NCBI GenBank assembly: GCA_963771045.1
Contig: CAVYRW010000004.1
Coordinates: 1,024,001 to 1,088,000, forward strand
Source: Waddliaceae bacterium
Lineage (GTDB): Bacteria > Chlamydiota > Chlamydiia > Chlamydiales > SLFE01
Direction: 5' to 3'
Length of the DNA stretch: 64,000 bases
The notes beneath the pieces are model-generated. The model searched no databases. It saw nothing but the letters and a program-made list of their open reading frames with translations, and was not told the DNA's origin. Within the stretch, counting starts at the first letter, position 1. Each line of letters begins with the position of its first letter. A program made the position numbers and the translations under genes. This document shows positions 56,037 through 64,000 of this stretch, piece by piece.

Positions 56037-56660
56037 ATGTTGATACACAATGCTAAAGTTCGCCTGTCCCCGGGAAGGGGAATTGGCCTCTTTGCTACAG
56101 AAGATATACCTACGGGGACAGTCATCTGGTGTCCTTGCGATAAATGCGAATATTATGAAAAAGGGGTATTGGGTCACTGCTCCGATGAAATGGCTTTCAG
56201 GCTTGAAGAACATGGGTATTATCTTGTAAATGGCGATATTCTGATTCCCTGCCAAAATGCCTGTTACATGAATCACTCCTGCGAGGCGAATTGTTTGGAT
56301 TTCGGACTGGATTTTGGTCTTGCTGTCAAGCCGATAAAAAAAGACGAGGAAATTTTTTGCGATTATCGCAACTGGCAAAATGACCCTGATTGGGAATTTA
56401 ACTGCTGCTGTGGAACTGCCAGGTGTCAAAAAAAAATCAGTCCAAGGCATGGTGAAGCTCGTGATTTGCAGCAAGAATGGATGAGAAAACTTAATGGAGG
56501 ACTGAAGCAAATGGCATCAGTCCGGCAGGGACTTTTCGAAACATTGATAAGGTGCAGCCACCACTTCCCCCGGTTGATCCGCAACATCGGCCTGTTCGAT
56601 CACAAAACTGCTGTTACCGTTAGAGCGCCGCATTTCATCAAGGAAGGGGATAAGCTTTGA
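56037..56660 (+). CDS. SET-domain methyltransferase with post-SET cysteines
   Basis: GIGLFA, YMNHSCEANC, EEIFCDY, CCCGTARC. Confidence 0.85.
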   Translation: MLIHNAKVRLSPGRGIGLFATEDIPTGTVIWCPCDKCEYYEKGVLGHCSDEMAFRLEEHGYYLVNGDILIPCQNACYMNHSCEANCLDFGLDFGLAVKPIKKDEEIFCDYRNWQNDPDWEFNCCCGTARCQKKISPRHGEARDLQQEWMRKLNGGLKQMASVRQGLFETLIRCSHHFPRLIRNIGLFDHKTAVTVRAPHFIKEGDKL

Positions 56661-57761
56661 TACAAATCCTTCCTCTAGCGAATCTTTGTCTGTATTGACG
56701 GCATAAGAGAAAAAGATATGCTTTTCGTTTTCATTACGTGCGGGGAAATAGAGAATTCCGGCCTTAAAGCCCCATTGCTCTCCAACGGCCTGCCAAAAGC
56801 TGCACCCTTCCTGAAAACAAAGCTGCCAGATTCCCAGACTATAGCGGTACTCTTTAGCTTTAACAAGAGGGATTTTGTTATCAAAAGGATGAACGGGAAA
56901 ACAATGGCGTCGGCAATCATTTAGAAAATTTGTCTGAAAGATAAGGTTTCGAAATCCGATGAGAAGATCCTCAGGGGTACTTATCAGAGCTCCTGCCGAC
57001 CATTCGTCCCAACTGTCATCAACTAGGTCTGAGATATCAAGATAGTTTGAAACCGGAGATGTCGCAAACAAAGACACATTCAGCAAATTTATGGCGGCAT
57101 AGGCTCTGGCGATTTTTTCATTAAGGCTAATGTAAACCGAGCTTTTCGGCATTATCAGAGGTTCGGTCACATTATCCCTAACTGCCTCGATAAAGGGTTG
57201 TCCTGACAGCTCTTCGACAACGATGCCGAGTATTAAATAATTGAGGTTGGAATATTGGAAATCTTGACTCTCGTTATACTCACTATTGGCCAAAGCGAAT
57301 TCCACAAATGCCCAAGGCAAGATTGGTTTTTTTTTAAGTGAGGTGAACATTCGGAGGTAGGGAAATGTTTCCTGGAAATCGGGAAGGCCGGAAGTGTGGG
57401 TCAGAAGCTGCAATACGGTGATGTCTTTAAGGGGCGGGTATTTTTTGCATAATGTATCGAATCTTCCGCCCAATTCGTTTAATTTTGTTTGAATGGGTAA
57501 ATTTTTTCTTTGAAGAAGGTCAAAGACCAGAAAACCGGTGAATGTTTTGATCACACTGCCGCATTTGAACAAGGTGTCCGGCGTTATCTTTTCCTTGTTT
57601 CTGAGGTCGGCATAGCCTGCACAAAGTATTTCAGGGGGCTTGTCATTGACGGCGATAGCGGCGCAAACGCCCGGGGCATCAATACGCAATGTGAAATCGG
57701 CTGCCCGGCAAAGCAGCGCAGCCGATAAAAAGCATAAAATAAAGGGCAATCTTATTTTCAC
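56517..57761 (-). CDS. Exported serine hydrolase (beta-lactamase class C / peptidase S12 family)
   Basis: Signal peptide, GSVIK (SxxK), LLTHTSGL, YSN (YxN), SAGALIST. Confidence 0.88.
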   Translation of the reverse strand: MKIRLPFILCFLSAALLCRAADFTLRIDAPGVCAAIAVNDKPPEILCAGYADLRNKEKITPDTLFKCGSVIKTFTGFLVFDLLQRKNLPIQTKLNELGGRFDTLCKKYPPLKDITVLQLLTHTSGLPDFQETFPYLRMFTSLKKKPILPWAFVEFALANSEYNESQDFQYSNLNYLILGIVVEELSGQPFIEAVRDNVTEPLIMPKSSVYISLNEKIARAYAAINLLNVSLFATSPVSNYLDISDLVDDSWDEWSAGALISTPEDLLIGFRNLIFQTNFLNDCRRHCFPVHPFDNKIPLVKAKEYRYSLGIWQLCFQEGCSFWQAVGEQWGFKAGILYFPARNENEKHIFFSYAVNTDKDSLEEGFVSKLIPFLDEMRRSNGNSSFVIEQADVADQPGEVVAAPYQCFEKSLPD

Positions 57762-57762
57762 C

Positions 57763-61910: not shown

Positions 61911-63200
61911 TTACACAATCGGCTCGAGTACGGGGTGCTGATGCGCCCTTTCTTTTGAGCTGCTGTGAAGAGGATAAATTTCTTGTCCGCATAAGCTATT
62001 GACAATCATAGCCGACCGCCATGCCATCAAACTTAAATTGGCATCGGCAACACCTCGACAATGCCGCGATCCATTCTGGATATAGATTTTGGCTTTGTCG
62101 GTATAATCCCATTGAACGGAGTAATCCTCGTTAGTCTGTAAATGGCCGTCTTCTGTAGATGAAATATATTCTTGCAGAGATTTTAAATAAGTAGGAAACT
62201 CCCAGCGGTATCCTGTACTCAGGATAACATAATCAACAAGGCGGGAAGACTGGTTTTTTTCAAGGATATTGTAATAAGAAACATTCCATTGATCTTCTTC
62301 TTTTTCGATTTTGTTGACTTGGGTATTGGTATGGATTTCGAGTCCCTTCCATCCATCACGGAATTTTAACTGATACCACCTCTGATAGAGGTCTCTCAGA
62401 AGTTCGTCGTTGATTCCGTCGCTTGCCAATTTATGTTGATTGAGCAGGATTTTTTTGACGTCTCTTTCCTTGAGGAAAAATTGCTCGACATAATTGGGAG
62501 TGAACCAATCATTGGCAAACGGGGAGTCATCAAGGGGGGCCAGATGGCTTCTGCGGGTGAGCCAGCAGAGACTCTCCGGGAGGGCATCGTTTGATGACAA
62601 GATGTCATTGACGATCTCAGCCCCTGTCTGGCCTCCACCTACAACAATTGCTCTTCGCCCTTTTAAATCGGGCTTGATCTCAAGAAAGCGGCTGGCATGG
62701 AACATGGTTTTTTGCGAAGACGGCAGGTGAAATGATGGAATGTTTGGGGCAAGTCCGGTGCCAATTACAATATGCCGCGATTTCACAAATTTATCCTGAT
62801 AAAAAATATGAAAATAAGGCTCGTGAAACTCCACTTTCTTTACCTTTGAGTCAAAACATATATTATCCACCGAATTGCAGACCCATTGTAGATACTGTTC
62901 AAACTCCCACCTCCTGGGGGTTTCAAACTTGGCATTAAGATGGGTATAAAAGCGGTTGTGGCGCTTGAGGAAATTCAAAAAACTATAAGGACTCATCGGA
63001 TCGACCAAAGTGACAAGGTCTTTCAAATAGGAAACTTGTAAATTGGAATTGGGAAAGAGAAGCCCCGGATGCCAGGAAAAAGTTTCTTTGGCCTCTAAAA
63101 ACAGCGAATTAACCTGTTTAACAGGATGCAAAAGGGCCGCAAGACTTAAATTGAAGGGGCCGACGCCTATACCTACCAGATCATAAAGTTTTTGACCCAT
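61911..63200 (-). CDS. L-lysine N6-monooxygenase (IucD/Spb38-like)
   Basis: GIGVGPFNLSLAAL, WHPGLL, KDLVT, VGGGQTGAE, LDDSPF, ILSTGY, NLSLMAWRS. Confidence 0.92.
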   Translation of the reverse strand: MGQKLYDLVGIGVGPFNLSLAALLHPVKQVNSLFLEAKETFSWHPGLLFPNSNLQVSYLKDLVTLVDPMSPYSFLNFLKRHNRFYTHLNAKFETPRRWEFEQYLQWVCNSVDNICFDSKVKKVEFHEPYFHIFYQDKFVKSRHIVIGTGLAPNIPSFHLPSSQKTMFHASRFLEIKPDLKGRRAIVVGGGQTGAEIVNDILSSNDALPESLCWLTRRSHLAPLDDSPFANDWFTPNYVEQFFLKERDVKKILLNQHKLASDGINDELLRDLYQRWYQLKFRDGWKGLEIHTNTQVNKIEKEEDQWNVSYYNILEKNQSSRLVDYVILSTGYRWEFPTYLKSLQEYISSTEDGHLQTNEDYSVQWDYTDKAKIYIQNGSRHCRGVADANLSLMAWRSAMIVNSLCGQEIYPLHSSSKERAHQHPVLEPIV

Positions 63201-63202
63201 AA

Positions 63203-64000
63203 TCAGCTTCTCCTTTCAAGCAAAGGGGGATAACGATGAATTTTTCCGTTGTAATCTTCTACAACATACGATTCATGCTTATCGTCTGTTGAGAGTTCCT
63301 TCAAATAGTTGGGATTGATAGGAACCTTGCCAAAACCGCCCGGAAGATCCAATGCATAAGTTGGCTGGCAAAGGCCCGAAAGTCTGCCCCTTATTTTTTT
63401 TAGCAATTGCTGCCCTTCTTCAATAGTTGTCCTGAAATGAGACGTCCCCTTGGCATAGTCGCCATGGTGAAGGTAATAAGGTTTGATCCTGTTTTTGACG
63501 AGCGCCCTAAACAGGTTTTCCAGCTTAACGGGGTCATCATTGATTCCTTTGAGAAGGACGCTTTGGCTGAGCATAGGAATACCTGATTCTACTATCCTGG
63601 CGATTGCCTTTTTGGACTTGTCGATAAACTCTTTTGCATGGTTGGTGTGGAGTATAATATAAAGAGCTTTATCGGTTTTCAATGCTTCTAGCATCTCATC
63701 AGAGATGCGGTCAGAGTCGACTATCGGAACGCGGGTGTGTATTCTGATCACTTCCACATGATCAATTGACGATAAACGGGTGATGATTTGCTTGATCATG
63801 CTCGGAGGCATAAAGAGAGGGTCCCCGCCGGTAAGAATGACTTCCCAGATTTCCTCAGTGTTTTGAATATACTCGAAAGCGGCGTCCAGTTCCTTTCGGT
63901 TCAATCCCGATTTGGCAGATCCTACCTTTTCTCTCCTGAAACAGAAGCGGCAATAGACAGGACATACAGTCATAGGAAGAAAGAGGCAGCGGTCAGGATA
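63203..64000 (-). CDS. Lysine 2,3-aminomutase family radical SAM enzyme (5' end off window)
   Basis: Frame is open to 64000 (YPDRCLFLP); CPVYCRFCFRR, TGGDPL, RIHTRVP, QSVLLKGINDD, PYYLH, GGFGKVP. Confidence 0.92.
   Translation of the reverse strand, partial: YPDRCLFLPMTVCPVYCRFCFRREKVGSAKSGLNRKELDAAFEYIQNTEEIWEVILTGGDPLFMPPSMIKQIITRLSSIDHVEVIRIHTRVPIVDSDRISDEMLEALKTDKALYIILHTNHAKEFIDKSKKAIARIVESGIPMLSQSVLLKGINDDPVKLENLFRALVKNRIKPYYLHHGDYAKGTSHFRTTIEEGQQLLKKIRGRLSGLCQPTYALDLPGGFGKVPINPNYLKELSTDDKHESYVVEDYNGKIHRYPPLLERRS

What the first reader, a model, noticed from the sequence alone, without database searches (positions are those of the whole stretch)
56517..64000. N-N bond (hydrazine) biosynthetic operon coupled to beta-lysine synthesis: candidate negamycin-like pathway in a chlamydia
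Seen: six co-oriented genes with gaps of at most 15 nt or overlaps. In order they are lysine 2,3-aminomutase, lysine N6-monooxygenase, FAD amino-acid oxidase, cupin-MetRS-like fusion, JmjC-like oxygenase and exported serine hydrolase; the operon continues beyond 64000. Knowledge: the trio N6-hydroxylase + cupin/MetRS-like hydrazine synthetase + FAD oxidase (Spb38/40/39 in s56-p1, equivalents in triacsin) makes hydrazinoacetic acid from Lys and Gly. Aminomutases give beta-lysine, and negamycin is 5-hydroxy-beta-lysine joined to N-methyl-hydrazinoacetic acid. Inference: these are the building blocks of a negamycin/deoxynegamycin-type hydrazide that targets ribosomes, made by a host-associated lineage not known to me for N-N natural products. 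It could serve symbiont-mediated defence or host manipulation. As I recall, Streptomyces negamycin uses a different N-N enzyme, so this would be a convergent route. The ligase, methyltransferase and exporter are not visible and may lie upstream. The amino acid used by the synthetase cannot be read from the sequence.
Basis: partly seen in the sequence, partly recalled or inferred. Interest (0 to 1): 0.95.

Follow-up and report, generated by a model that had tools for sequence, protein, structure and literature searches.

The report
Negamycin-like antibiotic genes in a chlamydia
An environmental chlamydia carries nine intact genes, six of them relatives of the genes that make the antibiotic negamycin, but with a different enzyme set for the nitrogen-nitrogen bond and a tailoring enzyme predicted to add chlorine, so it likely makes a new negamycin-like molecule.

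Summary
The operon is real and larger than reported: nine intact genes from window 56037 to about 2.3 kb beyond the window end, in a genome with chlamydial 16S signatures. Six are homologues of genes in the Kitasatospora purpeofusca negamycin (neg2) cluster: aminomutase 52%, SET protein 40%, methyltransferase 37%, PGM1-like ligase 32%, JmjC 28%, serine hydrolase 27%. The heme N-N enzyme NegJ is absent. In its place stands the Spb38/39/40-type trio, whose hydrazine synthetase keeps its catalytic residues and has a pocket like presumed glycine users. Among 42 related loci, 11 carry NegJ, 8 a hydrazine synthetase, none both; the types interleave on the ligase tree. This is module swapping in one family, not a convergent route. 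Two additions: the JmjC enzyme has His-x-Ala instead of His-x-Glu, as do its three nearest homologues, the signature of radical halogenases; and the aminomutase is the genome's only one and likely also serves EF-P, since a sister species deleted the cluster but kept it. Best reading: a negamycin-type hydrazide (0.7), chlorinated in about half of that probability. No product, expression or exporter is shown; the primary negamycin paper was unavailable.

The parts
63203..64000 (-). Lysine 2,3-aminomutase, 353 aa, NegB-like; starts 264 nt beyond the window end (G000:C4:1087203-1088264); the only KAM/EpmB-type gene found in the genome. Two further cluster genes lie wholly beyond the window, directly upstream on the same strand: a PGM1-like ATP-grasp ligase, 434 aa (C4:1088289-1089593), and a class I SAM methyltransferase, 246 aa (C4:1089603-1090343)
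   Evidence: KAM: TIGR03822 over cut-off, same family as the K. purpeofusca KAM; 52% identity; tree; single copy. Ligase: PF18604, PF18105, PGM1 3WVQ E 7e-12, 32% to K. purpeofusca. Methyltransferase: PF13649, 37%, start checked
61911..63200 (-). Lysine N6-monooxygenase (Spb38 type), 429 aa
   Evidence: PF13434 346.6 bits; N-hydroxylase structures E 5e-64 to 2e-29
60882..61895 (-). FAD-dependent oxidase (Spb39 type), 337 aa
   Evidence: PF01266; 33-34% to the oxidases of azaserine/nitroglycine-type clusters L199 and L201
59005..60894 (-). Cupin-MetRS-like hydrazine synthetase, 629 aa; cupin H49/H51/E55/H89 intact; pocket code TPDWMAN
   Evidence: PF07883+PF09334; best PDB match 9VQ4/9L8V = PyrN-C, E 5e-81 against 3e-44 for true MetRS; residues; a separate housekeeping MetRS exists
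57763..58995 (-). JmjC/ROX-fold Fe(II)/2OG enzyme, 410 aa, homologue of the 3rd neg2 gene, with H164-R-A166...H238 in place of H-x-E...H (Ala codon at 58498-58500): predicted halogenase
56517..57761 (-). Beta-lactamase-family serine hydrolase, 414 aa, S69-x-x-K and Y170-x-N present; homologue of the 1st neg2 gene; role unknown
   Evidence: PF00144; 27% to K. purpeofusca, E 2e-19; motifs
56037..56660 (+).
   Evidence: PF00856; 40% to K. purpeofusca, E 3e-32; alignment

Best explanation
This is an intact nine-gene cluster of the negamycin gene family that likely makes a beta-lysyl N-methyl-hydrazinoacetic acid hydrazide, predicted to build its N-N bond with a hydrazine synthetase instead of NegJ and predicted to carry chlorine where negamycin has its hydroxyl. 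Proposed steps, none shown biochemically: (1) the monooxygenase makes N6-hydroxy-lysine; (2) the MetRS-like domain adenylates glycine and esterifies the hydroxylamine, and the zinc cupin rearranges the ester to an N-N bond; (3) the FAD oxidase cuts off the lysine carbon chain and leaves hydrazinoacetic acid; (4) the aminomutase makes beta-lysine, likely the (R) form as for NegB (stereochemistry recalled); (5) the PGM1-like ligase activates the beta-lysine carboxylate and joins it to the hydrazine; (6) one of the two methyltransferases adds the N-methyl group; (7) the His-x-Ala JmjC enzyme likely chlorinates the beta-lysine chain, by analogy at C5. Steps 1-3 follow from characterised homologues with conserved catalytic residues. 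Steps 4-6 follow from homology to genes needed for negamycin. Step 7 is inferred from the metal site alone. The aminomutase likely also supplies beta-lysine to EpmA for EF-P. The confidence given is for the scaffold; for the chlorinated form it is about 0.35.
For: Six genes match the K. purpeofusca cluster that also holds a 615-aa NegJ-position gene. By gene order, the five genes whose joint deletion abolished negamycin (KPATCC21470_8071-8075) all have homologues here. The synthetase's best PDB match is PyrN-C; the four cupin ligands and T133, N135, Q174, D397, N398, K434 are conserved; the pocket code TPDWMAN shares 5 of 7 positions with TPDWMGH of two azaserine/nitroglycine-type synthetases and 0 of 7 with the glutamate code SFVALRR. 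Of 42 close ligase loci, 34 have a KAM, 11 NegJ, 8 a hydroxylase plus synthetase, 0 both; a single clade of synthetase-type ligases is rejected (AU p 1e-51, 16 rows). JmjC: the three nearest of 150 best homologues (45, 39, 36%) all have H-R-A; the position aligns with the H-F-D triad of YxbC; Gly/Ala there marks radical halogenases. Upkeep: the sister species G001 has the same locus with most of the cluster deleted, at dS 0.56-0.65 for the shared genes; the seven genes it lost have no stop in 2860 codons here, against 60-111 expected under neutral drift. EF-P link: efp (PGKG motif) and epmA are present, the family's usual epmB is missing from its contiguous syntenic site, and G001's deletions spare the KAM exactly.
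Against: No compound, enzyme assay or transcript exists. Four neg2 genes have no homologue in the genome by tblastn: the GNAT/FemAB-like gene, the alpha/beta hydrolase, the MFS transporter and NegJ (genome 90.6% complete), so export and self-protection are unexplained. Identities to the neg genes are only 27-52%. All 13 of 13 JmjC homologues inside neg-like loci have H-x-E; 2 of the 6 members of the window's own JmjC clade have H-x-D; and 8 of 10 engineered D-to-G/A plant oxygenases showed no halogenation. The glycine call rests on clusters recognised by gene content, not on characterised sequences, and two code positions differ; I did not see the alanine or serine codes. Whether the oxidase cuts at C-epsilon (Spb39) or C-alpha (Apy10) was not tested. 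The ligase family is not tied to N-N chemistry: 23 of the 42 loci show neither module, among them 7 Streptomyces loci of 15-21 kb. The sister species lost the pathway, so it is dispensable. Low dN/dS of KAM and methyltransferase (0.06, 0.11) does not prove present function in G001 if its deletion is recent.
Confidence: 0.7

Rival explanations
1. Same scaffold without chlorine: the His-x-Ala enzyme is inactive or still hydroxylates, so the product is deoxynegamycin, an epimer, or negamycin itself. This shares steps 1-6 with the best explanation and takes about half of its probability.
For: 13 of 13 JmjC homologues in neg-like loci have H-x-E; several synthetase-type loci have no JmjC at all (L014, L019, L032, L094, L096); natural deoxy analogues exist; most simple D-to-A/G changes give no halogenase.
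Against: H-R-A is shared by four proteins at 36-45% identity in one clade (SH-aLRT 100) and appears again in a separate branch (P0280). A dead enzyme would not be expected to keep His164, His238 and a full-length fold (pLDDT 82) over that distance.
Confidence: 0.33
2. The cluster makes an N-N compound of another structure: the synthetase uses alanine or serine, the oxidase cuts the other C-N bond, or the SET protein and serine hydrolase remodel the product, so that it is only a distant cousin of negamycin.
For: Pocket code differs from the presumed glycine type at 2 of 7 positions; Ser/Gly and Ala/Gly enzymes exist; Apy10-type oxidases cut differently; four neg2 genes are missing; two methyltransferases for one methyl group.
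Against: Trp at code position 7 is shared with the azaserine/nitroglycine-type enzymes; all seven other synthetases of neg-like loci that were aligned have D-W-M at positions 5, 7, 8; they occupy the place of NegJ, which makes hydrazinoacetic acid from glycine.
Confidence: 0.18
3. The cluster is a silent or decaying acquisition, kept only because its aminomutase replaced EpmB for EF-P modification.
For: G001 kept the KAM and methyltransferase and deleted the rest; in G002 and G013 only the KAM of this clade was found; epmB is gone from its usual site; no exporter.
Against: All nine frames are full length with catalytic motifs; 0 stops against 60-111 expected if the seven dispensable genes had drifted since the species split; codon use matches the genome (27th-84th percentile).
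Confidence: 0.1
4. The cluster is an assembly chimera or contaminant and not chlamydial.
For: The ligase family rings in only 2 of 400 phylum genomes and the hydroxylase in 3 of 400, G000 included.
Against: It lies on a 2.29-Mb contig with chlamydial 16S signatures; the independent genome G001 has remnants of it between the same flanking genes; GC3 is within 0.7 SD of the genome mean for all nine genes.
Confidence: 0.02

Closest known systems
Negamycin neg2 cluster of Kitasatospora purpeofusca (negA-negJ; bioRxiv 10.1101/2025.07.31.667836; Wang et al. 2025, not read)
   Same: Homologues of serine hydrolase, aminomutase, JmjC enzyme, methyltransferase, PGM1-like ligase and SET protein (27-52%); both aminomutases pass TIGR03822.
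   Different: No NegJ, so no need for nitrite or ferredoxin; N-N module is hydroxylase + synthetase + oxidase; no GNAT/FemAB-like gene, alpha/beta hydrolase or MFS transporter; JmjC has H-x-A instead of H-x-E; other gene order; host is a chlamydia.
Spb38/39/40 hydrazinoacetic acid cassette (s56-p1; Tri26-28 triacsin; azaserine; NngKLM N-nitroglycine) and PyrN
   Same: Same three enzymes in the order hydroxylase, oxidase, synthetase; cupin His/His/Glu/His and the PyrN active-site residues conserved.
   Different: No succinyltransferase, adenylating enzyme or carrier protein downstream; coupled instead to a beta-lysine ligase. In K. purpeofusca an spb-like region was deleted without effect on negamycin. 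Pocket code differs at two positions.
Fe(II)/2OG radical halogenases (BesD, WelO5, DAH, AspX, BtnX; PMC13489965)
   Same: 2-His plus Ala metal site in a cupin fold, with close H-x-D/E relatives.
   Different: JmjC/ROX (YcfD, NO66, YxbC-like) architecture; no characterised member among its near homologues that I could find; substrate unknown. JmjC/Cupin_8 entries exist among the predicted halogenases of that atlas (105 occurrences), but I did not match this subfamily to them.
EF-P beta-lysylation (EpmA, EpmB)
   Same: efp with the PGKG motif and epmA are present; beta-lysine is the substrate (established knowledge).
   Different: The TIGR03821-type epmB of related genera is absent; a TIGR03822-type aminomutase inside a biosynthetic operon is the only candidate.

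Membership tests
Negamycin (neg) gene cluster | Lysine 2,3-aminomutase of the NegB kind | tested here: met
   52% identity, same NCBIfam family over cut-off, groups with neg-like KAMs apart from chlamydial EpmB
Negamycin (neg) gene cluster | ATP-grasp ligase, methyltransferase, SET protein and serine hydrolase homologues in one cluster | tested here: met
Negamycin (neg) gene cluster | Heme N-N enzyme NegJ | tested here: not met
   No tblastn match at E 1e-3 in the 90.6% complete genome
Negamycin (neg) gene cluster | JmjC hydroxylase with H-x-D/E...H triad for the delta-hydroxyl | tested here: not met
   Homologue present but H164-R-A166...H238
Negamycin (neg) gene cluster | GNAT/FemAB-like gene, alpha/beta hydrolase and MFS transporter | tested here: not met
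   No match with the K. purpeofusca queries
Negamycin (neg) gene cluster | Production of negamycin; (R) stereochemistry of beta-lysine | not testable with these tools
   needs chemistry
Cupin/MetRS hydrazine synthetase | N-terminal cupin with His/His/Glu/His zinc site | tested here: met
   H49, H51, E55, H89 match PyrN H50, H52, E56, H90
Cupin/MetRS hydrazine synthetase | MetRS-like domain with HLGH, KFST and the PyrN active-site residues, closer to PyrN than to MetRS | tested here: met
   separate housekeeping MetRS at C4:829106-830596
Cupin/MetRS hydrazine synthetase | Neighbouring N-hydroxylase and FAD oxidase | tested here: met
Cupin/MetRS hydrazine synthetase | Glycine specificity | tested here: inconclusive
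   TPDWMAN against TPDWMGH in azaserine/nitroglycine-type clusters recognised by gene content; the published logo is a figure that I could not see
Fe(II)/2OG radical halogenase | Gly/Ala in place of the triad carboxylate with both His kept | tested here: met
   criterion
Fe(II)/2OG radical halogenase | No other carboxylate reaching the iron in 3D | not tested
   A model was made but its coordinates were not inspected
Fe(II)/2OG radical halogenase | Chloride-dependent halogenation | not testable with these tools
   needs an assay
EpmB (EF-P lysine aminomutase) | TIGR03821 over cut-off and descent from the family's epmB | tested here: not met
   236.7 bits against cut-off 369.3; separate clade. 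It may still do the job: epmA and efp present, no other KAM

The most novel reading that the evidence does not exclude
An intracellular-lineage bacterium makes a chlorinated negamycin: a negamycin-family pathway that needs no nitrite, in which a JmjC-fold hydroxylase has switched to a radical halogenase acting on beta-lysine, and whose aminomutase has taken over EF-P modification, tying an antibiotic pathway to the cell's own translation machinery. The same gene family swaps two unrelated N-N-forming modules repeatedly across phyla.
Probability: 0.35. Interest if true: 0.92.

Novelty: new variant of a known kind. Interest (0 to 1): 0.82.

Why it matters
Negamycin is active against Gram-negative pathogens and promotes stop-codon readthrough, but supply is limited, and the known route needs nitrite, a ferredoxin and a reductase from outside the cluster and worked in one of three heterologous hosts. 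A compact low-GC cluster that would use only lysine, glycine, ATP, NADPH and SAM is a direct candidate for production in E. coli. It makes a published speculation testable, that KinJ-type and hydrazine-synthetase modules are interchangeable. It offers a candidate halogenase of the JmjC/ROX fold and a possible new analogue. It gives a concrete, nameable product class for a chlamydial gene cluster, where most clusters have unknown function, and it points to further carriers such as Verminephrobacter, Aquimarina and Streptomyces ossamyceticus.

Tried and rejected
The search for related loci with the synthetase alone found no relative in genome contigs; the ligase alignment succeeded. A word-seeded search with the JmjC protein returned only itself; the full HMMER search was needed. 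Sequencing runs: no RNA holder listed; one DNA run gave 14 short pieces at 99% or more identity and may be the source, so it is not used as evidence. Promoter and terminator scan: 25 sites against 17.3 +/- 3.8 expected and 9 against 13.5, uninformative. Wang et al. 2025 (DOI recalled, may be wrong) and Matsuda et al. 2024 are not held. A 2026 review of N-N natural products does not mention negamycin. The supplement of PMC8664883 lists tested synthetases but its text does not name the glycine users or give sequences. The careful ligase tree did not finish; quick trees were used, so deep branches and the donor of the cluster are unresolved. The ESM Atlas gave only generic JmjC clusters. Earlier findings of this scan held nothing on this cluster. 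Rejected readings: a second MetRS (closer to PyrN, housekeeping copy elsewhere); a siderophore hydroxylase (synthetase and oxidase are adjacent); the SET gene as an unrelated chlamydial effector (40% to the neg SET gene, remnant deleted with the cluster in G001); convergent origin of the whole pathway; contamination. No complex prediction was run, as no binding claim is made.

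
Full report
Observation. The six genes are present as described, on the minus strand, with gaps of 2, 15, -13, 9 and 1 nt. The window is G000:C4:1024001-1088000. Beyond its end the operon goes on with the rest of the aminomutase (KAM, 353 aa), a PGM1-like ATP-grasp ligase (434 aa) and a class I methyltransferase (246 aa). A SET-domain gene on the plus strand (56037-56660) overlaps the serine hydrolase tail and belongs to the cluster. The contig carries two rRNA copies with exact matches to recalled chlamydial 16S primers.

Link to the real negamycin cluster. 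An alignment of 40 ligase homologues retrieved a locus of Kitasatospora purpeofusca NRRL B-1817 (L023). It holds ten consecutive genes: serine hydrolase, KAM, JmjC, methyltransferase, ligase, SET, GNAT/FemAB-like, alpha/beta hydrolase, MFS and a 615-aa gene without Pfam match. This fits the ten-gene neg2 region of bioRxiv 10.1101/2025.07.31.667836, with KAM second and the KinJ homologue last (I read parts 1-3 of 6 and searched passages; its table of gene functions is an image). Matching genes to NegA-J letters by order is my inference. The first six genes have homologues in the window at 27, 52, 28, 37, 32 and 40%. The last four have no tblastn match at E 1e-3 in G000, which is 90.6% complete. 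The deletion that abolished negamycin covered genes 8071-8075, by order the five genes from serine hydrolase to ligase.

The N-N module. The fusion's best PDB matches are 9VQ4 and 9L8V (E 5e-81), which are PyrN-C, against 3e-44 for a true MetRS; the genome has its own MetRS elsewhere. The cupin ligands H49, H51, E55, H89 match PyrN H50, H52, E56, H90, and T133, N135, Q174, D397, N398 and K434 are kept. I mapped the seven-position pocket code of bioRxiv 10.1101/2025.08.22.671884 (parts 1-4 of 5 read; logo figure and supplement not seen) through the PyrN alignment; positions not numbered in the text were placed by matching the letters SFVALRR. The window reads TPDWMAN. Two plasmid clusters with azaserine/nitroglycine-type gene content read TPDWMGH; such pathways use glycine (PMC13274452, PMC11705231, passages). 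Five of seven positions agree, two do not, and I did not see the codes for alanine or serine. Glycine is likely, not shown. The FAD oxidase is 33-34% identical to the oxidases of those clusters.

Module swapping. Searches gave 159 loci. I tabulated 42: the closer class and one frameshifted member. Of the 117 left out, all at 21-32% identity, six were checked and had no other cluster gene. Among the 42, 34 have a KAM, 11 have NegJ, 8 have hydroxylase plus synthetase, none has both and 23 have neither, many on short contigs. Some rows are near duplicates (L096/L102, L021/L039, L026/L105, L029/L103). Synthetase-type carriers include Aquimarina, Verminephrobacter, Streptomyces ossamyceticus and a Paraburkholderia bin. 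The last two ligases sit in a 99% clade with K. purpeofusca, inside a 100% clade whose other labelled members are NegJ-type. On 16 rows the label changes six times and one clade of synthetase-type ligases is rejected (AU p 1e-51, LG+G4). The window is the only locus seen with all six neg homologues and the full trio. A KinJ preprint already speculates that the two modules are interchangeable in general (10.1101/2025.05.27.656397, section 9 and passages). Searches for negamycin with aminomutase, hydrazinoacetic acid, Spb38, NegB/NegJ or halogenase returned no paper describing a synthetase-type neg cluster, a chlorinated negamycin or a chlamydial case. The library lacks most subscription papers; Wang et al. 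2025 and Matsuda et al. 2024 could not be read and may already note such clusters.

The tailoring enzyme. The JmjC protein folds with pLDDT 82 and resembles NO66/YcfD ribosomal oxygenases. Where K. purpeofusca has H-R-E, the window has H164-R-A166, with H238 kept; the family profile aligns this spot with the H-F-D of YxbC (E 4e-4). All 13 homologues found in the 42 loci have H-x-E. Of the 150 best matches among 1.84 billion representatives, 102 have Asp, 27 Glu, 16 Gly and 5 Ala, the query included; the three nearest (45, 39, 36%) all have H-R-A. They form a clade (SH-aLRT 100) with two H-x-D proteins, and a further H-x-A protein stands apart. Some of these proteins share source and contig length with a ligase or synthetase homologue: P0186 with P0063, whose code is also TPDWMAN; P0280 with P0031; P0188 with P0022 and P0050; P0195 with P0003. 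That is circumstantial; the contigs were not seen, and P0185 and P0187 had no such partner among the listed hits. Gly or Ala at this position is the working criterion for radical halogenases (PMC13489965 and 10.1101/2024.12.09.627616, passages). Against it, eight of ten engineered plant variants did not halogenate. I put halogenase at about one half. A chlorine next to the terminal amine might also be cryptic and be displaced; that is speculation.

History in chlamydiae. None of 60 relatives has a strong match covering the cupin part; 58 show only MetRS-level matches. In 400 phylum genomes, G000 included, the ligase profile rings in 2, the hydroxylase in 3 and TIGR03822 in 3. The same-genus genome G001 has the same flanking genes, an intact methyltransferase (87%) and KAM (93%), and only stubs of ligase (39 codons), hydroxylase (25) and SET. 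This rules out a chimera and dates the cluster before the species split. dS is 0.56-0.65 for the two shared genes and 0.30-0.57 for three flanking genes; codon use of all nine genes is typical of the genome. The seven genes lost in G001 have no stop in 2860 codons in G000, against 60-111 expected under neutrality in a simple model. An adjacent 1159-aa gene is broken into three frames in G000, so indels or decay do occur nearby.

Second job of the aminomutase. G000 has efp and epmA. 54 of 60 relatives have a KAM-family match, mostly at 32-39%. In G004 this epmB lies between murA-like and argS-like genes (named by eye); the contiguous matching stretch of G000 lacks it. G001, G002 and G013 each have one match, of the window's clade (SH-aLRT 99), and all have epmA. 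G001's deletions end just outside the KAM. The simplest reading is that the cluster KAM replaced EpmB. That both uses need (R)-beta-lysine is recalled, not tested.

Verdict. The finding stands and is stronger than stated. It works like the negamycin pathway but fails membership on NegJ, the hydroxylase triad and the accessory genes, so it is a new variant. Probability of a negamycin-type scaffold 0.7; of a chlorinated form 0.35. Export, self-resistance, the role of the second methyltransferase and of the serine hydrolase, expression and biological role are open. A survey of chlamydial gene clusters (10.1101/2021.12.21.473556, passages) does not mention hydrazine, negamycin or aminomutase in its main text.

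Noticed in passing
G000:C4:55996-57667 and C4:2004060-2005515 (L172); G001, G002, G013: The usual epmB is missing while efp and epmA remain; an aminomutase of the window's clade is the only KAM found in these four genomes. G013 belongs to another family, which hints at a second displacement or a transfer between chlamydiae.
   Followed up: partly
L001:12914-16393 (just upstream of the cluster): A gene that is one 1159-aa frame in G001 is split into three frames (310, 590, 309 aa) in G000: real decay or assembly indels.
   Followed up: partly
L215:9607-19178 (G227): Another chlamydia has a lysine N-hydroxylase (41%) and an Spb39-like oxidase (31%) next to a 2402-aa NRPS-like frame, with no synthetase found in the 20 kb fetched.
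   Followed up: partly
L205:563-4117 (G169); L216:9200-13721 (G300): G169 has a distant PGM1-like ligase (22%) between a transporter-like gene and an FAD oxidase; G300 has a divergent N-hydroxylase in a small operon with a similar-looking oxidase. Possible further chlamydial biosynthetic clusters.
   Followed up: no
L031, L033-L038: Seven Streptomyces loci have a KAM and ligase very close to the negamycin ones but no methyltransferase, SET, NegJ or synthetase: a possible beta-lysyl amide pathway without N-N bond.
   Followed up: partly
L013, L014, L019, L032, L046, L094, L096/L102; L027: Synthetase-type neg-like clusters in Aquimarina RZ0, Verminephrobacter aporrectodeae, S. ossamyceticus, a Paraburkholderia bin and metagenomes; ligase plus aminomutase in Mycoavidus. 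Verminephrobacter and Mycoavidus are symbionts (recalled).
   Followed up: partly
P0204-P0324: Sixteen JmjC/ROX-like proteins with H-x-G, fifteen of them in one clade with a single H-x-D member: a larger candidate halogenase group of unknown context.
   Followed up: no
L199 (S. lavendulae pSA3239): An azaserine/nitroglycine-type hydrazine cluster directly beside valanimycin-like genes (VlmB-like, serS): two N-N systems side by side.
   Followed up: no
window 48329-51595 and L001:16678-19209: Two long AAA-ATPase-like genes with similar-looking N-terminal regions (by eye) lie on either side of the region.
   Followed up: no
L002:2348-19293: Several transposases, a porin-like gene (2348-3466) and a 1590-aa RHS-repeat-like gene, judged by eye, 10-28 kb beyond the window.
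   Followed up: no
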